Source: Cyanobacteriota bacterium
Lineage (GTDB): Bacteria > Cyanobacteriota > Cyanobacteriia > Cyanobacteriales > Nostocaceae
NCBI GenBank assembly: GCA_046045965.1
Contig: JBJOKS010000010.1
Span: forward strand, 1 to 64,000
Direction of reading: 5' to 3'
DNA length: 64,000 nucleotides
In this document: one piece after another, positions 4,143 through 27,044 of the stretch
How positions within the stretch are numbered: the first letter of the stretch is position 1
How the letters are laid out: every line of letters starts with the position of its first letter
Notes under the pieces: generated by a model
Seen by the model: only the letters and a program-made list of their open reading frames with translations
Databases searched by the model: none
What the model was told of the DNA's origin: nothing
Made by a program: the position numbers and the translations under genes

Positions 4143-5020
4143 TTGAATATATTAAAACCTCCCGTTTAAATATCGCTTATCACAGCTATGGTGATATTAA
4201 TAAACCTACCATCATTTTATTACATGGTTGGCCAGATGACCCATTAACTTGGAGTCAAATTATTCCCGTTTTAGTAGAAGCTAATTATCACTGTATTACA
4301 CCCTATCTGAGAGGTTTTGGATTCACACATTTTCTAGATTACCAAACTCCCAGAAGTGGACAACTCGCAGCTTTAGCACAAGATATACTTGAATTTATTG
4401 AAGGTTTGAATATTGGTAAAATCCATGTAGTAGGACATGACTGGGGTGCAAGAATAGGTTATAATATTGCTGCTTTGCGTCCAGATTTATTACATACACT
4501 AACAGCATTATCAGTAGGTTACGGAACTAATAACCCACAGCAAAATATATCATTTTTTCAAATACAACAATATTGGTATCAATGGTTTTTTGCTACAGAA
4601 AGAGGAAGGAAAACTTTAACAACAGATAGAAGAGATTTAATTAAATATATGTGGAAATTATGGTGTCCTCATTGGAATTTTAGTGATGATGAATTTTTAG
4701 AGACTGCAAAATCTTTTGATAATCCCGATTGGGTAGATATTACCATAGATTCTTACCGTAATCGTTGGGGATTTTCTGCTAATGATCCTGAATATGAAAA
4801 GATTCATCAAAAATTAATGACTTCCCCAAAAATTAATGTCCCAACCACAGTATTACATGGAGGTGCTGATGGTGCAACTTTACCAGAAACCAGCGATAAT
4901 AAAGAAGAGTTTTTTTTAAAAGATTATCAAAGGTTTGTCATACCAGAAGTTGGTCATTTTATCCAAAGAGAAGCACCCCAAAAAGTAATTGAAGCTGTTT
5001 TAAATAGAGTAGGAAAATAA
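4139..5020 (+). CDS. Alpha/beta hydrolase (epoxide hydrolase-like)
   Basis: LLHGWPD, YLRGFG, GHDWG nucleophile motif, GHF; ATGA overlap with upstream gene. Confidence 0.9.
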   Translation: MIEYIKTSRLNIAYHSYGDINKPTIILLHGWPDDPLTWSQIIPVLVEANYHCITPYLRGFGFTHFLDYQTPRSGQLAALAQDILEFIEGLNIGKIHVVGHDWGARIGYNIAALRPDLLHTLTALSVGYGTNNPQQNISFFQIQQYWYQWFFATERGRKTLTTDRRDLIKYMWKLWCPHWNFSDDEFLETAKSFDNPDWVDITIDSYRNRWGFSANDPEYEKIHQKLMTSPKINVPTTVLHGGADGATLPETSDNKEEFFLKDYQRFVIPEVGHFIQREAPQKVIEAVLNRVGK

Positions 5021-9962: not shown

Positions 9963-12425
9963 CTATTCAACATGAGCAACAGTGACACCACTACCGCCAT
10001 CTGCTTGTTCTGCACTTTCATGGTGGCTGACTCTGGGGTGTTGTTGCAAGAAGGCGTGAACCCCTTGTTTTAATTTACCAGTACCGTGTCCGTGAATAAT
10101 CCACAATGGTCCAGCAGCTTCAGAAATGGCTTTGTCTAAGATATATTCGGCATCAGCTACCCGTTTTCCGCGCAAATCAACGGTATTTTTCGAGGTGCGA
10201 ATGGCTACCGTTGGTGTCGGTGGTGGGGTAACGGTTGGTGCTGGTTTGGGTTTAGTGATGGGTTCTGGTTTTTGTCCATCTAAAGATTCTACATCTGACA
10301 ACTGCACTGTCATTTTCATGATGCCAAAACGCACAGTTAACTCCCCATCTGCATTAGGGGCGGTTAATACTTCAGCGGTTTGCCCTATTTTGGGTATACG
10401 AATGCGATCGCCTACTTTGGGCATAAACCCTGGTTTGGGTTTGGGTGGTGGTGCTGGTTGATATTTCTCTGTAATTTCACTTAATGCCTTGGTTGCTTGC
10501 TGGGCATCTTGAGCGGTGGGTTTTCCTTGTTGTAAGCGCCGAATAACCTGGGCAATTTCTCCTTTAGCTTGGATAATTGCTTTCTGTACTGCGACTTCTT
10601 GAGAAGCACGCAAATCTTTTTCTCTTTCTTCCAACGCTGTGGCTTTTCGAGAAACTTCTTTGTATAATTTTTCCGCTTGCTTTAATAATTCTTGAGCTTC
10701 AGCGGCTTTGGTTTCCTGACTACGCCTTTGAGCTTCTAAACCTGCAATTACCTGGTTAACTTCGTCCGTGGCTTCTCCCACTTGGCTTTTAGCTGCTTCT
10801 ACCACTTCTGGTTTTAAGCCTAAGCGCAAAGCAATGGTTAAGGCGTTAGAACGTCCAGGAATACCCCACAATAACCGATAAGTTGGTGAAAGGGTAGCTT
10901 CGTTAAATTCTACTGAGGCGTTTTCAAAGCGAATATCATCGTATTTTAAAGCCTTCAATTCTCCAAAGTGGGTAGTAGCAATAGTTAACTGAGCATGATC
11001 AGCGAGATATTGCAAAAGAGCGATCGCTAATGCACTACCTTCCACCGGATCTGTACCTGCTCCTACCTCGTCCAATAATACTAAGCTTTGGGGTGATGGG
11101 GAGGTGGGGTGATGGGGAGGTGGGGTGATGGGGAGGTGAGGTGAAAGTTCTTCCCCTGTTCCCTGTTCCCTGTTCCCTGTTCCCTCAGTAATAGCATTTA
11201 AAATCCGACTAATGCGGCGAATATGCCCGGAAAAAGTAGATAAGCTTTGTTGTAAAGATTGTTCATCCCCAATATCGGCTAAAATCTGGTCAAACCAAGG
11301 CATTTCCACTGGTTCGCGGGCAGGAACAAATAAACCCACTTTAGCCATTAAAGCAGCTAACCCCAAGGTTTTCAAAGTTACAGTTTTTCCCCCAGTATTA
11401 GGACCAGTAATTGTCACTACTTTGATGTGGGGACTGATTAATAAATCAACGGGAATTACTGGATGTCCTTGTTCATGCTGTTGTTGCCAAACTAACAAAG
11501 GATGGCGTAATTGCCGCAGGGTAATTATTTCCTGTTCTTGACGATTTACGAACCTGGGAGGATTTGCACCTATCCAGAAACTATACCTAGCTTTGGCTGT
11601 GGCTAAGTCTAAGGTGGTGACAATGGCTAATAATTTTTCTAAATCAGGTTTAACAGCGCCAACTTGCTGTGTTAAATTGCGACGAATAACTTCTTCTTCG
11701 GCTTGTTCTCTTCTGATGGCTTGGCGCAGTTGGTTGCCCATCGGCACAATGCTATTAGGTTCGATATACAAAGTTGCGCCGCTGGTGGATGTGTCGTGAA
11801 CAATACCAGGAATTGCGTCTTTTTGCGGAGCTTTGACAGGGATAACATAGCGATCGCCCCTTTGGGTGATAATCTGCTCTTGTAATGCTCCTGATTTCAC
11901 CTGAATGATATTTTGCAGTTTACGTGTAATTTGACTGCGTAATTTTCGCAAATCTTCGCGAATTTCCCCTAATTTCTGACTAGCGCGGTCTGTAACTTGC
12001 GCTCTTTCATCAATACAACGGTGAATTTCTTGCTCTAATTCCGGGTAAGTCCGTAACTCAGCGACTAACTCAGTTAAAATCGGTACATCTTCCTGATTGT
12101 CAATCACCCGGCGTAAATTTCTCGCACCGGCGAGGGTGGTGGCTATTGCTAACAGTTCTTCCCCAGAGAGAATGCCTTGTAGTTCGGCTCGTTCTAGGGA
12201 GTCGCCAATATCTTGAATGCCTTCAAAGGATAACCCAGGCGTAAGCCGACTTTCCAGTTGATAGACTTCTTTGGTTTGCGCTAACAACTCTGTACTTTCC
12301 GCTTGAGTTGTCGGTATCGGCAAGGCACGGGCAACCATCGCCCCTAACTTAGTTGCCGCAAAGGTGGAAAGGTGCTGGCAAAGGCGATGCCATTCTAATA
12401 GTTCTAGGGTTTCAGACTGGATCAA
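9963..12425 (-). CDS. mutS2: Endonuclease MutS2
   Basis: GPNTGGKT Walker A, LLDEVGAGTDP, TTH, KOW region and C-terminal Smr domain (IHGHGTG). Confidence 0.97.
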   Translation of the reverse strand: MIQSETLELLEWHRLCQHLSTFAATKLGAMVARALPIPTTQAESTELLAQTKEVYQLESRLTPGLSFEGIQDIGDSLERAELQGILSGEELLAIATTLAGARNLRRVIDNQEDVPILTELVAELRTYPELEQEIHRCIDERAQVTDRASQKLGEIREDLRKLRSQITRKLQNIIQVKSGALQEQIITQRGDRYVIPVKAPQKDAIPGIVHDTSTSGATLYIEPNSIVPMGNQLRQAIRREQAEEEVIRRNLTQQVGAVKPDLEKLLAIVTTLDLATAKARYSFWIGANPPRFVNRQEQEIITLRQLRHPLLVWQQQHEQGHPVIPVDLLISPHIKVVTITGPNTGGKTVTLKTLGLAALMAKVGLFVPAREPVEMPWFDQILADIGDEQSLQQSLSTFSGHIRRISRILNAITEGTGNREQGTGEELSPHLPITPPPHHPTSPSPQSLVLLDEVGAGTDPVEGSALAIALLQYLADHAQLTIATTHFGELKALKYDDIRFENASVEFNEATLSPTYRLLWGIPGRSNALTIALRLGLKPEVVEAAKSQVGEATDEVNQVIAGLEAQRRSQETKAAEAQELLKQAEKLYKEVSRKATALEEREKDLRASQEVAVQKAIIQAKGEIAQVIRRLQQGKPTAQDAQQATKALSEITEKYQPAPPPKPKPGFMPKVGDRIRIPKIGQTAEVLTAPNADGELTVRFGIMKMTVQLSDVESLDGQKPEPITKPKPAPTVTPPPTPTVAIRTSKNTVDLRGKRVADAEYILDKAISEAAGPLWIIHGHGTGKLKQGVHAFLQQHPRVSHHESAEQADGGSGVTVAHVE

Positions 12426-12997
12426 GGCTTCAACATCTAATCTGAAACTATGGTAACAATTCTGGTTGCAAGAAAGTGAAGTTTTTGAGAATGAAATTTT
12501 TATGGTTCTTGGCCTCTTGTAGAGACGTTACATGAAATTTATTTACATTTTGATGTGCTTCTATTCTTTAATAAATTTCACTAATCCATGTTTGAATTGC
12601 ACTAAGTAAAGTAGTTTGATTTGGTGGAAAGCCTTACATTTTTTTAAATTGTTATGGTTGTGGCTATCATTCAAAATGTTAAGTAGGTCATTAACTGAAT
12701 AAGGATAGTCTGTAGAGACTTTAAATTTATTAGTTAAAGCATTGAATATATCTAAACCTTTAATCTTTGTTAAATCATAGGGAGGTGTAAATTTCTGTCA
12801 CCCTAGTTATCAAGATGTTCAAACTTAAACTATCTAATTTTGTTAATATTCTTAATTCTCATAAACTTAAGTTGTTAATAAAGTTAATTAATCCTGAAAA
12901 ATCAAAAAAATAATATTGACATCTCTCTAGAGAAGAGAATAAAATGTATTCAAACAAGAATATAAAAATACCTGCTCAATATCTTGCAGGAGAAAAT

Positions 12998-13654
12998 ATG
13001 CTGTTTAGTCCAGCTAACTTACCTTATTGGATTTTCCTAATCACGGGAATACTGCTTTTTTTGTTCATGATTTTTATAGGAGGGGGAGAAGCAGAATTAG
13101 ATGCTGATGCAGATTTAGATGTGGAAACTGACAGCGAAGTGAGCTTTGGAAACTTTCTCGGATGGGCAGGAATTGGTAAAGCTCCATTGTTGTTATTGTT
13201 GGCAACAGATTTAAGTCTGTGGGGTGTCATTGGCTGGATGTTAAATGTTTGGTTTGGTGGCATTGCTCAAAATCAAACATTTTCTTTAATTGCAATTTTT
13301 ATCTTGTTTATTTCCCTAATTATCAGTTTATTCATGGGTAGATTGATAGCTGAACCAATTGGTAAAATGTTTGCTGAATTTAGTGAAGATGCAAGTAGTG
13401 AACGTTTAGTAGGTTGCATTGGTAATGTTATTTCTGTTTATATTCCTGCGGAAAATTTAGGCAAAATTGGTCAGGTCGATATTTTCGATCCAAAAGGTAA
13501 TTTTTTGACTATTAATGCTGTTATTCCAGATTGGGCAACTATCGCACCACAACGGGGAGAAAAAGTGATAGTAATTGAACTTAAACAGCAAATTTATCTA
13601 GTAATTGCTAAAGACAGCGTAGATGAGGAACATTGGTTAAATAACTCGAATTAA
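12998..13654 (+). CDS. YqiJ/NfeD-like membrane OB-fold protein (flotillin partner)
   Basis: N.PYWI, acidic D-repeat, G.GKAP, C-terminal OB-fold; RBS CAGGAG before the ATG at 12998. Confidence 0.8.
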   Translation: MLFSPANLPYWIFLITGILLFLFMIFIGGGEAELDADADLDVETDSEVSFGNFLGWAGIGKAPLLLLLATDLSLWGVIGWMLNVWFGGIAQNQTFSLIAIFILFISLIISLFMGRLIAEPIGKMFAEFSEDASSERLVGCIGNVISVYIPAENLGKIGQVDIFDPKGNFLTINAVIPDWATIAPQRGEKVIVIELKQQIYLVIAKDSVDEEHWLNNSN

Positions 13655-13684
13655 AACAATCTAATTTAGATTAAGGAAAAGAAA

Positions 13685-15595
13685 ATGCTTTTTTGGTTAA
13701 CATTTATCCAGGCTCTACCAACTGTTAATGTACCGGAAATATCATCATTTAAGGTACAATCAAAGCAGGAATATACAACATCAATTACTCCCACATTTCC
13801 GCTTTCAACACAGCCGACTTTAGCCCAAATTAGTGGAGGAGTAGTATTTCCTGGGATTGTTGTTACTTTAGTTTTACTGCTGCTATTAAGCTTGTTTGCT
13901 TATACCAGAGTTTATGTTGTCACACCCAACAACGAAGCTTTTGTGAGAACGGGGGGATTATTTACTAAAAAGAAAGCAGTAATTCTTTATGGTGGTTGCA
14001 TTGTTTTACCAGGATTTCATCAATTAACAAGAGTACCTTTGCGGGAAATTTCTATTGATGTAGAACGGACTGGAAAACTTGCAGTGAGAACAAAAGATTA
14101 CCTCAGAGCAGATATTAGAGTCACGTTTTATGTATGTATTAATGCTTCCGAAGATGATGTTTTGACAGCAGCAGCAAGACTATCTCAAAATGGTACTAAA
14201 ATTAATCCTGAAGACATCAAAAATGCTTTAGAAAAAAGAGCAGATGACGCAATTAGAGCAGCAGCTAAAACCAAGGATTTAGCAGAAATTGATTCTGATA
14301 AATTGGGGTTTGCTCAGGAAGTTTTAAACTTGGTGGGGACAGATTTGAAGAAAGTGGGATTAACACTAAATAACATTGCCATTTCGGAAATATTAGAAAG
14401 TGTTACCTATGATCCTGATAATTTCTTTGATGCTCAAGGTGTGCGGTTGCGAACGGAAATTATTCAACGTTCAGTGCAACAAAAACGGGAAGTTGAGTTA
14501 TCAGCACAGGTGACAATTGAGCAAAAAGAATTGGATGCTCAAAAAAGATCATTGCAAATTGCCCAAGAACAAGAAAGTGCTAAACTAGCTCAAAAATTGC
14601 AAGTGGAAGCATTGAAAGCACAGCGAGAAAGGGAAATTCAAGAAGCAAAAGATAGAGAAGCTGCAATGGTACAACGTACCAAAATTTTGCAGGAAAAATC
14701 AGTTGAAGAGGAAGAAATTCGCAGAAAGTTATCCCTTCAACAAAGTCAAATTGAAGCTGATATTGCTTTAGAAGAACGGAATAAACAATTAAAAGTAGCC
14801 CAAGCTTTGCAAAAGCAAGAAGCAGAATTAGCAGAAATTGTTCGCCAACAAAGTGTAGAATCTGGTAAACTAAAAGCACAGGTACAAATAGCTGAATCTG
14901 AAAGAGTAGCAAGGTTAGCTCAAGAAGATGTGGCCATAGCAATTGCTAACAAAAAACGTGAAAGTTTTGTTGCTCAAGCAGAACAAGCTAAAGCGGAAGA
15001 GTCTGTAAAAACAGCCGGTGAAGTTGAAAAAGCTGAACGTACCAAACGCTTATCTATTATAGCCGCAGAAAGGGAAGCACAAGAACGGAGTATCAGCGAT
15101 CGCAACGTTGTCGAAATTGAAGCTTTCCGTCGTCGTCGTCAAGCAGAAATTGCCCAAGAAGCAGCAGAATTAGAAGCAGAAGCAATTCGTACTCTTGCAG
15201 ATGCTAACCGTGATAAAGCTTTAGCTGAAGCAGAAGGTATTCAAGCCAAAATTGCGGCGGAAAATACAATTAGTAACGCTAATTTGAGTGCGAAAATTCT
15301 CACAACTATCTGGCCAGAATTAGCAGATAAACTACCAGAAATTGTCACTGCTTTAGCACCACAACCAGGCGTTTTAGGAGATACTCGCATTTATTCTTTC
15401 CCTGGTGCAAATGGTAGTAGTGGGAGTCAAGATATTAACAAGTTGCTATTATCTACTAGCGGACTTTCCTTAATTAATACCTTGTTAGATGAAGGTAAAT
15501 TAGGAGACTTAATTGGACAAGTTGGTCAAATGGTGCGTAGTAATAACTCAGTTAGTCCACCAAGCTTAAATCACCAAGACAAAGAAAGTAATTAA
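13685..15595 (+). CDS. Flotillin/SPFH domain protein (YqiK-like)
   Basis: TM, SPFH domain, NFFDAQG motif, long E/A/Q coiled coil. Confidence 0.92.
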   Translation: MLFWLTFIQALPTVNVPEISSFKVQSKQEYTTSITPTFPLSTQPTLAQISGGVVFPGIVVTLVLLLLLSLFAYTRVYVVTPNNEAFVRTGGLFTKKKAVILYGGCIVLPGFHQLTRVPLREISIDVERTGKLAVRTKDYLRADIRVTFYVCINASEDDVLTAAARLSQNGTKINPEDIKNALEKRADDAIRAAAKTKDLAEIDSDKLGFAQEVLNLVGTDLKKVGLTLNNIAISEILESVTYDPDNFFDAQGVRLRTEIIQRSVQQKREVELSAQVTIEQKELDAQKRSLQIAQEQESAKLAQKLQVEALKAQREREIQEAKDREAAMVQRTKILQEKSVEEEEIRRKLSLQQSQIEADIALEERNKQLKVAQALQKQEAELAEIVRQQSVESGKLKAQVQIAESERVARLAQEDVAIAIANKKRESFVAQAEQAKAEESVKTAGEVEKAERTKRLSIIAAEREAQERSISDRNVVEIEAFRRRRQAEIAQEAAELEAEAIRTLADANRDKALAEAEGIQAKIAAENTISNANLSAKILTTIWPELADKLPEIVTALAPQPGVLGDTRIYSFPGANGSSGSQDINKLLLSTSGLSLINTLLDEGKLGDLIGQVGQMVRSNNSVSPPSLNHQDKESN

Positions 15596-15724
15596 TAATT
15601 ACTAATTCATAATTCGTAAGTGAAATAAATTATGAATTATTAAGCAGATGCTTGTTGTTGAACTTTCAATATTAGTTTAAAGAGACGTTTCATACAACGT
15701 CTCTATATTGTTTTTTCAGCACAT

Positions 15725-16654
15725 CTAATCAACTTTAAACCTAGCTAATAATTCCTCACGGGAAAGATTAGATAAATTCAGCAATAACTGAGTTCTTTCT
15801 GTCAAAGAAAGTTCCATCATCCGAGTTACAATCACAGATAATTCCTGATCTAAATTACCAAAACGGACTGCTAACAAACTCTCTATCATCAAACGCTGTC
15901 CGTCTTTTTGTCCTTCCTGTCTTCCTTCCTGTCTTCCTTCCTCTATTCCCTCTTGTTTCCATTCTTCCCGTTGTTTAAGATACGCAGGTGATAAACTCAT
16001 AATTAACTCCTTTACCTCTTCATCATTGACATCACTATTCAATTCTAAATTTTTCCGCCAAGATGCGAAAATTTCCACCAGTCTGTTCCATTTATCATTC
16101 TCTTTTGAGAGTTGAACTACTTCGGTAATAGCTTCCGTTTGGATTTTACCTTTTCCTAGTACCCTTAACCATAGTGTATCCTCTGTCATGGGTAATTGGT
16201 TAATGGCAACAATGGCAGTTTTATAAGCTTTTGGGAGAAAATATACTCCTTTTTCCCAGTTATCTTTTGCTTTTCCTCCAAAACTGTTGAGGATTTTTTC
16301 AGAACAGGTTGGTGTTAAAATCCATAAACAAGGTAATTCTTCTTCAGATAGAGAACGTTTTTCTCTTTTCGCTTGTCTTAACAATTCACCTTGAACGCTA
16401 TACAATTTTAACAAACAACTCCTAATTTCTATTTCATTAGGTGCATTACGGTAAGGTTCAAAAAGGCAGCTTGTAACCGCCATTTTTCCTAAAATTCCTA
16501 ATTCTGAATTTTCTGATTTTGTTGTAGGAACAAACCAAACATCAATTTCTTGAACTTCGCTTTTTACATCTTTGCTAATTGTGACATTACCTAGAGGTGT
16601 TAATAATTCCTCTAGATATTCTTTTGCTAGTTGATCATGGGGTTGTCGAGTCAT
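15725..16654 (-). CDS. Rpn/DUF4351-like (PD-(D/E)xK-related) cyanobacterial protein
   Basis: HDQLAKEYL, EIDVWF, FEPYRN, LWLRVLG, QEG repeats, RFG C-terminal domain. Confidence 0.75.
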   Translation of the reverse strand: MTRQPHDQLAKEYLEELLTPLGNVTISKDVKSEVQEIDVWFVPTTKSENSELGILGKMAVTSCLFEPYRNAPNEIEIRSCLLKLYSVQGELLRQAKREKRSLSEEELPCLWILTPTCSEKILNSFGGKAKDNWEKGVYFLPKAYKTAIVAINQLPMTEDTLWLRVLGKGKIQTEAITEVVQLSKENDKWNRLVEIFASWRKNLELNSDVNDEEVKELIMSLSPAYLKQREEWKQEGIEEGRQEGRQEGQKDGQRLMIESLLAVRFGNLDQELSVIVTRMMELSLTERTQLLLNLSNLSREELLARFKVD

Positions 16655-24681: not shown

Positions 24682-24780
24682 TTTTGTAATGTTCTGTTAA
24701 CCTTCCTTACTTGTACCAGTATTGCTTAAAATTTCCAGGGTGTGGGGATTGTTGATCGGGGACTGGGGATGAAAACTAAC

Positions 24781-24863
24781 TTCTCCTGTTAAAATAATCC
24801 CTATTAGGGATTGAAACTAACCGATCCTCACTATTGGCAAAATCTCTATTGGAGATTGAAAAC
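24781..24863 (+). CRISPR. Orphan CRISPR-like mini-array: two degenerate type I-D-like repeats flanking one short spacer
   Basis: AATCCC-TATTA-GGGATT-GAAAC (24796-24817) and AATCTC-TATTG-GAGATT-GAAAAC (24841-24863); 45-nt period; 23 nt between them; no cas genes in window. Confidence 0.7.
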
Positions 24864-24932
24864 ATAATGTTGAACATCACAAACGCCAAGTTAAGCTTTA
24901 TTGCTGATAACTTTCTTGGTGAAAATGAAGCG

Positions 24933-25154
24933 ATGAGAGAAATTGCTTACAGCATGGATTTATTAATTCCTGGCTTGTACTTATGGCTACCAGGAATAAA
25001 TATTCGCCTTGGTGGTGCTGTTCCTGATGATCAACCCTACAGATATCCAGGTAAAATTCACAGTCATGCTGGTATTGCTTTAGTATTACCAGGGTACAAG
25101 ATTTTTACATCTTACCAGGGAACTTATGACTCATTTGGAGAGGAGTTTAAATAA
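24933..25154 (+). CDS. Hypothetical protein, 73 aa (alternative ATG at 24867)
   Basis: Open frame with protein-like composition directly downstream of the mini-array; no family recognised. Confidence 0.65.
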   Translation: MREIAYSMDLLIPGLYLWLPGINIRLGGAVPDDQPYRYPGKIHSHAGIALVLPGYKIFTSYQGTYDSFGEEFK

Positions 25155-25201
25155 GGATAGGTTAGTAAGGTAAAAGATATTGATATTTTATCAGGCTACC
25201 T

Positions 25202-25429
25202 ATGACCCTTAACACGCATAAAATCCAGGGACTACCAAAGTTTAAATGTCAAACATTAAGCGCAACTCAATTTGAGAAATTAATGATTGATGCTGGTTAC
25301 TCAATATCAGGTACTGCACCAGCCCAAGGTAATAGAATTAAAGTTTGGTGGATTCATGATCAATACCCAAGAGTAGAATCTATTTATAGTCCTGACAAGA
25401 AAACAGTTATTACTGCGTATCATGTATAA
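25202..25429 (+). CDS. Hypothetical 75-aa protein, possible small RNase toxin fold
   Basis: Helix (ATQFEKLMIDAGY) followed by beta-strands and a C-terminal VITAYH motif reminiscent of HicA/BrnT/RelE-like RNases; function is inference. Confidence 0.65.
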   Translation: MTLNTHKIQGLPKFKCQTLSATQFEKLMIDAGYSISGTAPAQGNRIKVWWIHDQYPRVESIYSPDKKTVITAYHV

Positions 25430-25502: not shown

Positions 25503-26990
25503 TTAAATAAAATTCTTGCCCTGTTGATAAATTTCCTTTGCATAATTAGTCCAAGCACCTTGTCCCCAATATCTAAAACAACTGGTTTGCAGCAAAAGAT
25601 TATGTAATAAAACTTGGCGGTAGTGGTTTTCTTTAGTGATAGATTGATCTGAATTATCGGTTAACAAATCATCGAATTTTTGATGAAATAAATTACTTAA
25701 TTCATACATGGGTGATAAAACATTTTCGTATCCTTGCACCCAACTAATATGATTTGTCCATGATGCACCATCAACATGAAAATTAGGGTTAGTTTTCTTG
25801 ATTTCTTGAATGGCATTTTCTACTGCATCTGGTTGACAATTATCTGCGTTTATTCGCTGCCAAATTTGATGCTGTCCAATTGGTTGACATTGGGGAAAAT
25901 CTTCCGGTTGACAACCAGCATCTGCTAATAATTCTAAATATTCTGTACCACAAACACCAACCACACCTGTTTTACCTCCGCCATTTTGCTGCATATCCCA
26001 CCAAGCTTGTTTAAAACCGCTGGGAAATTCATTCATCATTACACCGCCGTTTTCACCATCACCTATTTGGCTGACAATTGGTGGTACTAAAACATTACCT
26101 AATTGTTGTTTATTTAAAGTTTTTGCTTCATAGTATGGCTGCATTTGGGCAACTAATTTAGTATCTGATCCTTGGGTTTTAATTAATGCGGTAATACTAA
26201 TGGTTTCCCCTTGGGAATTACGAGCAATTAAACGATGTGGTAAGTGTTTATAAACCAGAGGTTCACCGTTAATTGTTTCTACAGTATGTTCTTGTACTAA
26301 TAACCAATGATAACCACATTCTTTGAGGGCTTTGATAAATGCAAATAGGGTATCTGGATGGTTTGGGAGGTGCATTTCTGGGGGGGAAAATCCTTTAATT
26401 CTTGCTAGTGCTTCCCAGCCAAAAATTGCTGCAAAGTGATGTTGCCAAGCAATAATATGTAGTTTAAAATCTGCTATGGGTGTGGAAGGGATGACTGCAT
26501 GACTCCACATTGTCCCTAACCATTCTACATAAGGCTGATAAGTGCGATCGCAAGTGATACGTTTGAGATTTTCTAAAATATCACTTCTTCCCATTTGTCG
26601 AAGTCCCCATAATAGATTACCAGAATAATCGAGCATTACACGGGGGTTACAACCTTGATGTACTAATTCGGGAATAAAATCTCCCATACGACTGTAACAA
26701 TAAGCAAAGGGTCCTGCGTTGTGGTTGTCTCCTTCGTTTTGGTGTTCAAACATATATTGCAGGTTGCTGATCAGGGAACCACCATGTCCTGCTGGTATAG
26801 TGGGTTGGTGCATATGCAGAGCGATCGCAAATACTGCTTTTACATCTGCTAATTTAATATTAGTTGTTGGTAAAAATACAGGATCATTATGGTTAACTAC
26901 AGATAGAACTTCATTTTCCCAACCTGATATATTTGGTAAATCATCAATGATTTCGGGTAAAATTGGCAGATTAGATGGTAATTTTAACAT
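25503..26990 (-). CDS. Glycoside hydrolase family 57 protein
   Basis: ALHMHQP, GFSPPEM, DGENGG, TSC.RYWG. Confidence 0.88.
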   Translation of the reverse strand: MLKLPSNLPILPEIIDDLPNISGWENEVLSVVNHNDPVFLPTTNIKLADVKAVFAIALHMHQPTIPAGHGGSLISNLQYMFEHQNEGDNHNAGPFAYCYSRMGDFIPELVHQGCNPRVMLDYSGNLLWGLRQMGRSDILENLKRITCDRTYQPYVEWLGTMWSHAVIPSTPIADFKLHIIAWQHHFAAIFGWEALARIKGFSPPEMHLPNHPDTLFAFIKALKECGYHWLLVQEHTVETINGEPLVYKHLPHRLIARNSQGETISITALIKTQGSDTKLVAQMQPYYEAKTLNKQQLGNVLVPPIVSQIGDGENGGVMMNEFPSGFKQAWWDMQQNGGGKTGVVGVCGTEYLELLADAGCQPEDFPQCQPIGQHQIWQRINADNCQPDAVENAIQEIKKTNPNFHVDGASWTNHISWVQGYENVLSPMYELSNLFHQKFDDLLTDNSDQSITKENHYRQVLLHNLLLQTSCFRYWGQGAWTNYAKEIYQQGKNFI

Positions 26991-27044
26991 TTTTGTTTGT
27001 TCCAAAATCAGGTATAACTGTAAATTTTGCCCTGATATTTAGCA

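What the first reader, a model, noticed from the sequence alone, without database searches (positions are those of the whole stretch)
24760..25429. Candidate CRISPR-repressed toxin module: orphan mini-array whose spacer seed matches the promoter region of a downstream small toxin-like ORF
Seen: the spacer after repeat 1 (24818-24840, TAACCGATCCTCACTATTGGCAA) is complementary to + strand 25150-25164 (AATAAGGATAGGTTA) at spacer positions 1-5, 7-11, 13 and 15. The only mismatches in the first 13 nt are positions 6 and 12. The site lies 38-52 nt upstream of the ATG of the 75-aa ORF and just upstream of an extended -10-like TGaTATTTT (25181-25189). Known: class 1 effector complexes flip out every sixth guide base, and short partial guides give repression rather than cleavage, as in CreTA/CreA and other crRNA-like regulators. 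Inference: a Cas6-processed guide could silence the 75-aa putative RNase in trans using cas genes encoded elsewhere, giving a stand-alone addiction or anti-anti-CRISPR module; the 73-aa ORF has an unknown role. Caveat: the flank on the protospacer strand is TAC, not the GTH PAM expected for type I-D, and two flanking bases pair with the repeat handle. RNA-level pairing with the + strand transcript (type III-like or cis fold-back) is therefore an equally open alternative.
Basis: partly seen in the sequence, partly recalled or inferred. Interest (0 to 1): 0.85.

Follow-up and report, generated by a model that had tools for sequence, protein, structure and literature searches.

The report
CRISPR repeat leader on gene pair
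Two cut-down CRISPR repeats sit directly in front of a small, conserved two-gene unit of filamentous cyanobacteria, an arrangement kept in many relatives, which suggests that the CRISPR RNA-cutting machinery helps control these genes.

Summary
Spacer 24818-24840 is complementary to 25150-25164 at 12 of 15 positions, and at 10 of 11 in the seed. Chance gives this in about 1-6% of shuffles.

The repeats derive from CRISPR. R1 scores 39 bits against Rfam CRISPR-DR5, whose cut-off is 40. Its 3' 19-mer fills long arrays in 4 of 5 relatives.

The larger result is comparative. ORF1-ORF2 is a cyanobacteria-only pair with no known family. In one Nostocaceae clade (57 loci), a truncated repeat hairpin plus crRNA handle ends 1-7 nt before the ORF1 start codon. 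In Nostoc it lies behind true arrays.

I read the element as an array-trailer repeat kept as a Cas6-cuttable leader of the operon.

- The seed match persists in 7 of 9 lineages that carry the ORF1-ORF2 insert.
- The target never varies, so covariation cannot be tested.
- The expected PAM is absent.
- G114 and G149 have lost the match.
- Nostoc-type loci have neither the insert nor a target.

ORF2 toxicity is unproven. I call it a new variant of a known kind.

The parts
24745..24787 (+). G-rich heptamer-like run ending in GGGGATGAAAAC, then TAACTTCTCCT. It may be a further decayed repeat unit in front of R1.
   Evidence: Direct repeat D4: 24766-24787 against 24807-28, 77%. The G-rich part has 23-32-nt look-alikes on other contigs, so it may instead belong to a dispersed heptamer repeat family. 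The unit TAACTTCTCCT pairs 9 of 11 with the same downstream site, but 45 of 500 shuffled guides do as well.
24788..24817 (+). R1: a truncated CRISPR repeat with hairpin and 8-nt handle. It is 30 nt against the family's 37.
   Evidence: Rfam CRISPR-DR5 39.0 bits (cut-off 40), E 0.0006, with a 7-nt deletion in the 5' part. The 3' 19-mer is identical to repeats of long arrays in G321 (61 copies), G114 (29), G407 (153) and G466 (97). It occurs once in the window's own genome.
24818..24840 (+). 23-nt 'spacer'. Positions 1-11 form the seed that is complementary to 25154-25164.
   Evidence: Orthologous spacers are 16-23 nt long and differ at positions 4, 5, 6, 9 and 10.
24841..24863 (+). R2: the terminal truncated repeat, consisting of hairpin plus handle only. 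It ends 3 nt before the ORF1 start codon.
   Evidence: 86% identical to R1 over 21 nt, with a compensatory stem change. It folds as a hairpin in the minimum-energy and centroid structures. The homologous element sits 1-7 nt from the ATG in 57 loci, and 40 of 57 pass a strict hairpin test.
24810..24854 (+). Predicted 45-nt crRNA-like product between the inferred Cas6 cuts in R1 (24809/24810) and R2 (24854/24855). The second cut would also create the 5' end of the ORF1 mRNA, leaving a 12-nt leader.
   Evidence: This is an inference. Mature crRNAs of Anabaena 7120 start precisely with the 8-nt tag (Reimann et al., bioRxiv 10.1101/2020.04.14.041012, passages of section 14). No RNA ends could be read here, because only contigs were available.
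24867..25154 (+). ORF1, 95 aa. The conserved core is residues 22-88. It belongs to no known family.
   Evidence: The AlphaFold2 model has pLDDT 74.6, and the best structural match has Z 3.5.
25133..25201 (+). Lineage-specific insert between ORF1 and ORF2, flanked by a duplicated junction motif.
   Evidence: Direct repeat family D2 at 25086, 25112 and 25188. Comparison with relatives in which the ORF2 start lies inside ORF1. The insert is 51-300 nt long and tandemly expanded in G114, G466, G472, G476 and G451.
25202..25429 (+). ORF2, 75 aa. It is highly conserved and has no known family.
   Evidence: Invariant H6, R45, K47, W50, H52, E59, Y73 and H74 in 37 sequences. The AlphaFold2 model has pLDDT 96.6, with one helix and a four-stranded sheet. 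There is no Foldseek match at E <= 0.001, and the best VIA Z is 5.7, a generic match. A profile search found 73 representatives among 1.84 billion proteins.

Best explanation
The element at 24788-24863 is what remains of the trailer end of a Nostocaceae CRISPR array: two truncated repeats. It has been kept as the 5' leader of a conserved two-gene operon, ORF1-ORF2.

The last repeat is reduced to the part that Cas6 recognises, the hairpin plus the crRNA handle. It ends 3 nt before the ORF1 start codon.

Proposed mechanism:
- The operon is transcribed together with, or behind, the repeats.
- Cas6 cuts at the base of each hairpin.
- The cut in R2 gives the ORF1-ORF2 mRNA a 5' end that carries a crRNA tag about 12 nt before the AUG.
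- The cuts in R1 and R2 together release a 45-nt crRNA-like RNA.
- Expression of the pair is thereby tied to the state of the cell's Cas6 and Cas complexes.

Shown: the anatomy; its conservation in 57 loci of several genera, with compensatory hairpin changes; its position behind true arrays; and cover by RNA-library contigs, which cannot prove that it is transcribed.

Inferred: Cas6 cleavage, the direction of the effect, and any toxicity. My guess is that cleavage and capture by Cas complexes keep translation low.
For: Identity of the repeats:
1. R1 is a CRISPR-DR5-type repeat, identical in its 3' 19 nt to array repeats of 4 of 5 related carriers.

Conservation of the arrangement:
2. I collected 123 distinct ORF1 loci. 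Of these, 57 form a clade whose ORF1 begins ML..T(N/K). All 57 show at least the right arm and handle just upstream of the ATG.
3. 40 of the 57 pass a strict test: at least 5 contiguous pairs, followed by a GAAA-like handle motif starting 6-13 nt before the ATG.
4. In a non-structural alignment of the 49 distinct upstream segments, 85% of hairpin cells pair, 11 cells show changes on both sides, and 0 of 500 shuffles reach the observed covariation score or pairing.
5. L133 and L135 keep a doubly changed stem although the full repeat in front of them has decayed.
6. Only the hairpin and handle are kept. The repeat's 5' part is missing in every case.

Position relative to arrays:
7. In Nostoc-type loci the truncated repeat follows full 36-37-nt repeats with unique spacers of about 36 nt, up to 7 or more repeats within the stretch fetched.
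8. By pattern search, repeats lie upstream in 44 of 56 loci and downstream in only 3 of 56.

Specificity:
9. The covariance model hit 3 of the 66 loci outside the clade. Two of these (L180, L123) are really clade members. The third (L161) is a convergent array beyond ORF2.
10. Loci outside Nostocaceae show no such hairpin at the ORF1 start.

Machinery and expression:
11. The window's genome encodes cas1, two cas6 genes and a Cas10d.
12. All 5 carriers tested with an intact hairpin have cas6 above the cut-off. Among carriers with a decayed hairpin, 3 of 5 do. The samples are small and related.
13. A 526-nt contig from an RNA library (X2) covers 24703-25228 with no differences at depth 20.9, and its flanks are uncovered.
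14. Precedent: a lone repeat-like motif in front of a non-CRISPR RNA is cut by Cas6-3 and loaded into the Csm complex in Sulfolobus (PMC4041471, passages read).
Against: - No RNA 5' end could be read. Only contigs were available, and an RNA library can hold DNA.
- The window's genome has no array with this repeat. Its own arrays carry a different hairpin, so processing would need cross-recognition. That is known for Anabaena Cas6 enzymes but is untested for these repeats.
- In one group (L008, L009, L011, L012, L081, L085, L088) and in L013 the left arm has decayed while both ORFs stay intact. The hairpin is therefore dispensable for the gene pair.
- 17 of the 57 loci fail the strict hairpin test.
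- The loci are related and were partly chosen by me, so counts overstate independence.
- Conservation could partly reflect recombination with resident arrays.
- The first 12 codons of ORF1 show no extra synonymous constraint: 0.089 against 0.099-0.118.
- The function of both proteins is unknown.
Confidence: 0.5

Rival explanations
1. One reading: a CreTA/CrePA-like circuit. The R1-spacer-R2 transcript is processed into a crRNA-like guide. Its 11-nt seed directs a class 1 effector to 25154-25164, just upstream of an ORF2 promoter, or as a roadblock between ORF1 and ORF2. This represses the putative toxin. The model is compatible with the best explanation as an extra layer specific to this lineage.
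For: - The seed matches 10 of 11, with the single mismatch at position 6. Chance gives this in 4 of 300 shuffles of the module, and 0 of 500 shuffled guides reach it.
- The match is kept at 9-10 of 11 (10-11 with G-U pairs) in G321, G407, G451, G466 and G472/G476.
- Among orthologous spacers, position 6 shows all four bases. Four of the five changes at paired positions are C>T opposite G. This is my reading, and the events are few.
- In G466 the unit lies next to a type I-D-like cas operon (Cas1d, Cas4, Cas6, Cas3) whose 36-repeat array has the same repeat 3' end.
- Published kinds: I-D mini-arrays with toxin-antitoxin cargo, and CreTA/CrePA (review PMC12737573, section 10 read).
Against: - The target is invariant, so no covariation is possible.
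- The match is lost in G114 (8 of 11, chance level) and in G149 (6-8 of 11), although both ORFs are intact.
- G442 (L086) keeps a target-like site but has no upstream repeat to make a guide.
- The flank is TAC, not the expected GTH.
- The spacer is only 16-23 nt long.
- The insert holding the target is absent from most of the clade.
- Among the 33 loci scanned, a non-self seed target turned up only in 4 Anabaena-type loci. None of the Nostoc-type or second-type loci has one.
- No promoter was called at the site.
- ORF2 toxicity is not shown.
- The window's genome lacks arrays of this repeat type.
Confidence: 0.2
2. Neutral relic. The gene pair once landed behind an array. The repeats are decaying leftovers carried along by descent and refreshed now and then by recombination with resident arrays, and they have no role in expression.
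For: - Arrays of filamentous cyanobacteria are known to fragment often (Reimann et al., abstract and passages).
- The hairpin has decayed in several lineages whose ORFs are intact, and 17 of 57 loci fail the strict test.
- Decayed copies keep the mini-array next to broken ORFs: G258, G411 and G406.
- The terminal hairpin takes the form of different repeat families in different genomes: L170 and G114.
Against: - The same truncated form, abutting the ATG, persists across sub-lineages whose ORF1 proteins are only about 60-70% identical. Meanwhile linkers, spacers and upstream arrays turn over.
- Compensatory stem changes occur where the neighbouring full repeat has decayed, as in L133 and L135.
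- The handle is nearly invariant.
- Recombination with arrays would restore full-length repeats, which are never seen at this position.
Confidence: 0.2
3. The hairpins act without guiding anything. Either they are decoys that soak up Cas6 or Cas proteins, like RNA anti-CRISPRs, or they are a Cas-independent 5' stem-loop that stabilises the mRNA or masks the ribosome site (GGAG lies in the 3' arm of R2).
For: - Solitary repeat units that mimic CRISPR repeats are in print (Nature 2023, PMC10651486; search listing and abstract only).
- G149 has four hairpins with tiny spacers.
- GGAG lies inside the R2 stem.
Against: - The locus lies between a Peptidase_M17 gene and another chromosomal gene, not in a phage.
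- ORF2 has no match among 50,697 phage records, and matches only 3 cyanobacterial plasmids.
- A generic stem-loop would not need the conserved handle.
Confidence: 0.1

Closest known systems
[quoted passage not shown] 2023, bioRxiv 10.1101/2023.03.03.530964; section 24 and passages read)
   Same: Two repeat-like sequences with a short spacer lie upstream of small non-cas genes. The spacer is partly complementary to a nearby non-coding site. In the relative G466 the unit lies beside a type I-D-like cas operon with matching repeats.
   Different: - In the window the unit is far from any cas gene, and the genome lacks arrays with this repeat.
- The last repeat abuts the start codon of the first cargo gene, leaving no room for a promoter between them.
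- The candidate target lies between the two cargo genes and lacks the expected PAM.
- I could not see that paper's Supplementary file 6 (only its legend is held), so I cannot say whether these very loci are listed there.
CreTA and CrePA (crRNA-like antitoxin CreA guiding a Cas effector to the promoter of an RNA or protein toxin; review PMC12737573, section 10 and passages read)
   Same: A degenerate two-repeat mini-CRISPR with an 11-nt-scale seed match close to a small gene. The addiction or anti-anti-CRISPR logic would fit.
   Different: - Those systems sit inside cas loci, and their targets carry a PAM.
- Toxicity and Cas-dependence are shown by experiment for them. Here neither is shown.
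- The match here is not general in the clade.
- ORF2 has no KilA-N domain or any other known toxin domain.
ncRNA60 of Sulfolobus solfataricus (PMC4041471, passages read)
   Same: A single repeat-like motif in front of a non-CRISPR RNA. Cas6 cleavage leaves a crRNA-like 5' handle, and the product is loaded into a type III complex.
   Different: ncRNA60 is a non-coding RNA in an archaeon. Here the RNA behind the motif would be the mRNA of two conserved proteins, and the arrangement is conserved in many genomes.
Extraneous crRNA (ecrRNA) from the extra repeat of an array (PMC12080349 and PMC13187072; search listings and abstracts only)
   Same: The last repeat of an array has no spacer of its own, so its processing product carries flanking sequence in the spacer position. 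In Nostoc-type loci that flank is the ORF1 start.
   Different: ecrRNAs were described for class 2 systems as a burden to be suppressed. Here the flank is a conserved gene, and the terminal repeat appears to be kept.
Type II toxin-antitoxin pairs
   Same: Two small genes, the second starting inside the first. The distribution is patchy and some copies lie on plasmids. ORF1 occurs alone in 25 genomes, and ORF2 never does.
   Different: No toxin or antitoxin family, fold or DNA-binding domain was recognised. A singleton metagenome protein fuses both parts, which is unusual for such pairs.

Membership tests
CRISPR repeat (Rfam CRISPR-DR5, RF01318) | Match to the family's covariance model at or above the gathering score | tested here: inconclusive
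   R1 scores 39.0 bits against a cut-off of 40, with a 7-nt deletion. R2 was not reported.
CRISPR repeat (Rfam CRISPR-DR5, RF01318) | The same repeat forms regular arrays with unique spacers | tested here: met
   The 3' 19-mer of R1 recurs at about 72-nt spacing in G407 and G466, and is present in G321 and G114. It does not recur in the window's own genome.
Functional CRISPR array | Full-length repeats separated by spacers of about 35 nt, with leader and cas genes nearby | tested here: not met
   In the window the period is 45 nt, the repeats are truncated (30 and 23 nt), the spacer is 23 nt, and no cas gene or array lies on this contig.
CreTA / CrePA-type Cas-repressed toxin module | Two degenerate repeats flanking a spacer | tested here: met
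   R1, spacer and R2.
CreTA / CrePA-type Cas-repressed toxin module | Spacer seed complementary to the toxin gene's promoter | tested here: inconclusive
   The seed matches 10 of 11 at a site 38-48 nt upstream of ORF2. The promoter itself is not shown. The match is lost in G114 and G149 and is absent from the other sub-lineages.
CreTA / CrePA-type Cas-repressed toxin module | Target flanked by the system's PAM | tested here: not met
The flank on the protospacer strand is TAC in the window and in all carriers, because GTA follows the site on the + strand. The PAM of this repeat type was not determined.
CreTA / CrePA-type Cas-repressed toxin module | Location within or beside the cas locus whose effector it uses | tested here: not met
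   Not met in the window. Met in the relative G466.
CreTA / CrePA-type Cas-repressed toxin module | Toxicity of the gene product and its Cas-dependent repression | not testable with these tools
   This needs expression and knock-out experiments.
Type II toxin-antitoxin pair | Recognisable toxin and antitoxin families or folds | tested here: inconclusive
   No hit in Pfam, NCBIfam, PADLOC or PHROGs. Fold searches gave only generic matches. The Atlas lead to DUF4258 scores 0.80, below the level at which chance hits are common.
Type II toxin-antitoxin pair | Two-gene operon in which the first gene can occur alone but the second cannot | tested here: met
   ORF1 is in 89 of 401 genomes and ORF2 in 64 of 401. 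All 64 lie within the 89. ORF1-only loci have no other partner ORF behind them.
RNA anti-CRISPR (solitary repeat unit of a mobile element) | Encoded in a phage, prophage or plasmid | tested here: not met
   The flanking gene is a Peptidase_M17 gene. ORF2 has no match in the phage collection.

The most novel reading that the evidence does not exclude
The mRNA of a protein-coding operon is born as the last 'crRNA' of an array. Cas6 cuts the terminal repeat and leaves a crRNA tag 1-7 nt before the AUG. Type I-D or type III effector complexes then capture the ORF1 start region as if it were a spacer, and so silence or destroy the message. When Cas6 or the effectors are missing or blocked (cas loss, anti-CRISPRs), the message is freed and the toxin-like pair is made. 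This would be a guard on CRISPR-Cas integrity that needs no guide-target match at all.
Probability: 0.15. Interest if true: 0.85.

Novelty: new variant of a known kind. Interest (0 to 1): 0.6.

Why it matters
If the terminal repeat really is a Cas6 site that sets the 5' end of a conserved mRNA, this would be a natural case of CRISPR processing machinery wired into ordinary gene expression, repeated in dozens of Nostocaceae genomes.

It would bear on three open questions:
- What happens to the product of the last repeat of class 1 arrays.
- Why arrays in filamentous cyanobacteria fragment yet persist without cas genes.
- How small toxin-like gene pairs are coupled to CRISPR-Cas.

It also supplies a new, compact, cyanobacteria-specific protein pair whose structure (ORF2 model pLDDT 96.6) matches no known fold family.

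Tried and rejected
- Family scans of ORF1 and ORF2 against Pfam, NCBIfam, PADLOC and PHROGs gave nothing usable.
- Foldseek on PDB with the ORF2 model gave no match at E <= 0.001. The best was RnlA at 0.11.
- VIA-align wide gave a best Z of 5.7 for ORF2 and 3.5 for ORF1, both generic.
- Complex prediction with ORF1 (residues 16-95) plus ORF2 returned no verdict, with scores 0.46, 0.00 and 0.01. This is evidence neither for nor against binding.
- The ESM Atlas returned only unnamed cyanobacterial clusters, plus a weak DUF4258 lead at 0.80.
- A profile search with the ORF2 alignment found 73 representatives. None of the 12 that I scanned had a meaningful Pfam family.
- The cis fold-back alternative was tested by folding 24703-25260. 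No spacer-target pair has probability above 0.01, so I rejected it.
- Rfam at gathering scores on 40 related loci reported no CRISPR family even where true arrays are present, so it was no use as a counter.
- The first 12 codons of ORF1 in 26 Nostoc-type sequences show no extra synonymous constraint.
- The consensus promoter and terminator scan found nothing at the proposed sites.
- The insert and the mini-array are not dispersed repeats in this genome. Only the G-rich stretch at 24743-24770 has look-alikes.
- Of the supplements to Shmakov et al., only a legend is held.
- Earlier findings of this scan hold nothing on this genome or on these proteins.
- Paper searches for a CRISPR repeat abutting a start codon, or for a Cas6-processed mRNA leader, found no such description. 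Hou et al. 2019 on CRISPR in multicellular cyanobacteria is not in the library, so a mention there cannot be excluded.
- Contigs from RNA libraries cannot show RNA ends. Parts without cover mean nothing.
Full report
OBSERVATION

- R1 (24788-24817) and R2 (24841-24863) share a 21-nt hairpin-plus-handle core at 86% identity. The single stem difference is compensated on the other arm.
- Between them lies the 23-nt spacer TAACCGATCCTCACTATTGGCAA.
- The reverse complement of 25150-25164 matches spacer positions 1-5, 7-11, 13 and 15.
- In dinucleotide shuffles, a seed match of at least 10 of 11 anchored at spacer position 1 turns up in 4 of 300 shuffles of the 667-nt module and in 5 of 300 shuffles of the surrounding 2.3 kb. 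With any offset allowed it turns up in 12 of 200.
- Across the whole window, both strands, there are 3 sites with at least 12 of 15, including the spacer itself.

WHAT THE REPEATS ARE

- R1 matches Rfam CRISPR-DR5 at 39.0 bits against a cut-off of 40, with 7 nt missing from the 5' part.
- Its 3' 19-mer occurs once in the window's genome. It occurs 61, 29, 153 and 97 times in G321, G114, G407 and G466, at array-like spacing, and not at all in G472.
- The window's genome (107 contigs, 92% complete) has three arrays on other contigs, with 52, 41 and 13 repeats. These repeats are related but carry a different hairpin.
- It also has cas1, two cas6 genes and a Cas10d.
- None of these lies on the window's contig. 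The unit sits between a Peptidase_M17 gene and a 500-aa ORF with no Pfam match.

THE GENE PAIR

- ORF1 (24867-25154, 95 aa) and ORF2 (25202-25429, 75 aa) have no hit in Pfam, NCBIfam, PADLOC or PHROGs.
- All their relatives are cyanobacterial 'hypothetical proteins'.
- In a sample of 401 genomes of the order, ORF2 is found in 64 and ORF1 in 89. All 64 are among the 89. ORF1-only loci have no other partner behind them.
- In most relatives the ORF2 start lies inside the end of ORF1.
- ORF2 is strongly conserved, with invariant His, Arg, Lys, Glu and a C-terminal Tyr-His. Its model is confident (pLDDT 96.6): one helix packed on a four-stranded sheet.
- Neither Foldseek nor VIA-align places it in a family.
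- The ORF1 model is weaker (pLDDT 74.6) and matches nothing.
- 'Toxin-like' therefore rests on gene arrangement and distribution only.

THE COMPARATIVE RESULT

I collected loci from three sources: the order-wide protein searches, a family-wide DNA search and named genomes. From the roughly 150 places listed I added 60 regions, which I chose for spread over genera. Collapsing identical sequences and dropping loci without an ORF1 match left 123 distinct ORF1 loci.

In 57 of them ORF1 begins ML..T(N/K). Just upstream of the start codon of each of these 57 there is at least the right arm and handle of a CRISPR repeat.
- 40 of 57 pass a strict test: at least 5 contiguous pairs, then a GAAA-like handle motif starting 6-13 nt before the ATG.
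- The other 17 carry a mismatch or a decayed left arm.

Three sub-types stand out:
- Anabaena/Dolichospermum type, which includes the window: a 30-nt R1, a 16-23-nt spacer, then R2 and 2-3 nt before the ATG.
- Nostoc type: a full 36-37-nt repeat, often the last of a true array with unique spacers of about 36 nt. It is followed by a conserved stretch of 15-16 nt, the truncated repeat, and 7 nt before the ATG.
- A second type: a 30-nt repeat, a 56-nt spacer, the truncated repeat, and 1 nt before the ATG.

Further points:
- Repeats lie upstream in 44 of 56 loci by pattern search. 14 loci have three or more within the stretch fetched. Only 3 of 56 have repeats downstream.
- In a sequence-only alignment of the 49 distinct upstream segments, 85% of hairpin cells pair, 11 cells are changed on both sides, and 0 of 500 shuffles reach the observed score. 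Kinship inflates such figures.
- L133 and L135 carry a doubly changed stem behind a decayed full repeat. This is the clearest sign that the terminal hairpin itself is kept.
- The covariance model hit 3 of the 66 loci outside the clade. Two are misfiled clade members, and one is a convergent array beyond ORF2.
- By eye, three further loci (L014, L132, L142) have a weaker hairpin right before the ATG.
- Outside Nostocaceae no such hairpin precedes the ORF1 start.

The target lies in a 51-300-nt insert between ORF1 and ORF2. Only the Anabaena-type lineage and G149 have this insert. It is flanked by a duplicated junction motif.

Seed matches in the carriers:

| Genome | Watson-Crick pairs of 11 | Note |
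|---|---|---|
| G000, G321 | 10 | 0 of 500 shuffled guides reach it |
| G407 | 10 | 11 with G-U pairs |
| G451 | 10 | |
| G466, G472/G476 | 9 | 10 with G-U pairs |
| G114 | 8 | 216 of 500 shuffled guides do as well |
| G149 | 6-8 | chance level |

- The target AGGATAGGTTA is identical in all carriers except G149, so covariation cannot be tested. Where the target region differs (G149), the spacers do not follow it.
- Position 6 of the spacer shows all four bases among orthologues, and four of the five other changes are C>T opposite G. This fits pairing with a flipped sixth base, but it rests on few and related events.
- The flank is TAC in every carrier.
- Neither the conserved short spacer of the Nostoc type nor that of the second type has a non-self seed target in its locus. 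A search for at least 13 of 16 also found none in 21 loci.
- Folding gives no support to a cis fold-back.
- In G466 the unit sits about 2.3 kb from the first gene of a type I-D-like cas operon (Cas1d, Cas4, Cas6, Cas3). That operon's 36-repeat array has the same repeat 3' end. This is the setting in which Shmakov et al. describe I-D mini-arrays with toxin-antitoxin cargo.

EXPRESSION

- One RNA-library run holds a 526-nt contig identical to 24703-25228 at depth 20.9, with uncovered flanks. Another run holds a 1363-nt contig across the whole unit.
- This is a weak hint that repeats and ORF1 lie on one RNA. Contigs cannot show RNA ends, and such libraries may hold DNA.

MECHANISM

The best-supported reading is that the element is an array-trailer repeat kept as a Cas6-cuttable leader of the ORF1-ORF2 operon.
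- In Anabaena 7120, crRNAs begin exactly with the 8-nt tag, and the two Cas6 enzymes cross-cleave some repeat groups.
- By analogy, cuts would fall at 24809/24810 and 24854/24855. They would release a 45-nt crRNA-like RNA and an mRNA with a 12-nt tagged leader.
- Whether this raises or lowers expression is unknown.
- A neutral relic (about 0.2) and a decoy or plain stem-loop (about 0.1) remain possible.

COMPARISON AND NOVELTY

- Mini-arrays that regulate cargo, CreTA/CrePA, a Cas6-cut non-CRISPR RNA (ncRNA60) and extraneous crRNAs are all in print.
- I found no description of a conserved truncated repeat abutting the start codon of a conserved protein operon, at the trailer of arrays, in many genomes. 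One relevant paper is not in the library.

LIMITS

- The loci are related and were partly hand-picked.
- No RNA ends, no PAM and no protein function were obtained.
- The window's genome is incomplete, so a cognate array may be unassembled.

Noticed in passing
window 24743-24772: A G-rich heptamer-like run (GGGGATT / GGGGACT units) just upstream of the mini-array. It has 23-32-nt look-alikes at 87-91% identity on at least six other contigs. It looks like a dispersed short tandem repeat family of filamentous cyanobacteria (the name STRR is recalled, not tested).
   Followed up: partly
protein P0269 (metagenome singleton, 148 aa): One protein joins an ORF1-like half (residues 1-73) to an ORF2-like half (74-146) in a single frame. 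This hints that the two proteins work together. It is a single sequence on one 4.8-kb contig, so it could be an assembly or gene-calling error.
   Followed up: partly
L183 (G466:C110) 12176-16346, minus strand: Three ORFs of 274, 290 and 815 aa lie between cas3 and the operon start and have no NCBIfam hit at 1e-5. By size and place they should be the Cas5, Cas7 and large-subunit genes of a divergent type I-D-like system. An MntA-family antitoxin gene lies next to them.
   Followed up: no
L183 (G466:C110) 4332-4898: A long tandem run with a 7-nt base period (copies spaced 14 or 21 nt apart) lies between the CRISPR array and cas1.
   Followed up: no
L071 (G114), L067 (G466), L069 (G472), L070 (G476), L073 (G451): between ORF1 and ORF2: The ORF1-ORF2 insert is expanded to 127-300 nt by tandem copies of a unit that ends in the ORF2 start context. 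It also holds small palindromic inserts, and in G451 a GC-rich palindrome. The junction seems to be a hot spot for small insertions.
   Followed up: no
G000 contigs C6:164896-168669, C45:1927-4887, C66:4484-5566: Three CRISPR arrays of 52, 41 and 13 repeats with two related repeat types. Those on C6 and C45 lie next to cas6 genes. The C45 cas6 match lies in a 387-aa open frame, like the long Cas6 with an extra domain described for Anabaena 7120.
   Followed up: partly
window 25503-27005, minus strand: A 500-aa ORF directly downstream of ORF2, in convergent orientation, has no Pfam family at E <= 0.001.
   Followed up: no
cluster of P0001 (ORF2 relatives): One source names a member 'PASTA domain-containing protein'. 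Pfam gives no PASTA hit for ORF2 even at E <= 1, so the name looks automatic and unsupported.
   Followed up: partly
L077 (G258), L072 (G411), L075 (G406), L082 and L087 (G757, G758): Decayed copies of the unit. In some, the mini-array sits next to a truncated ORF1 and ORF2 is missing. In others, ORF1 fragments lie in the same aminopeptidase-flanked site without the mini-array. The unit is being lost in several relatives.
   Followed up: no
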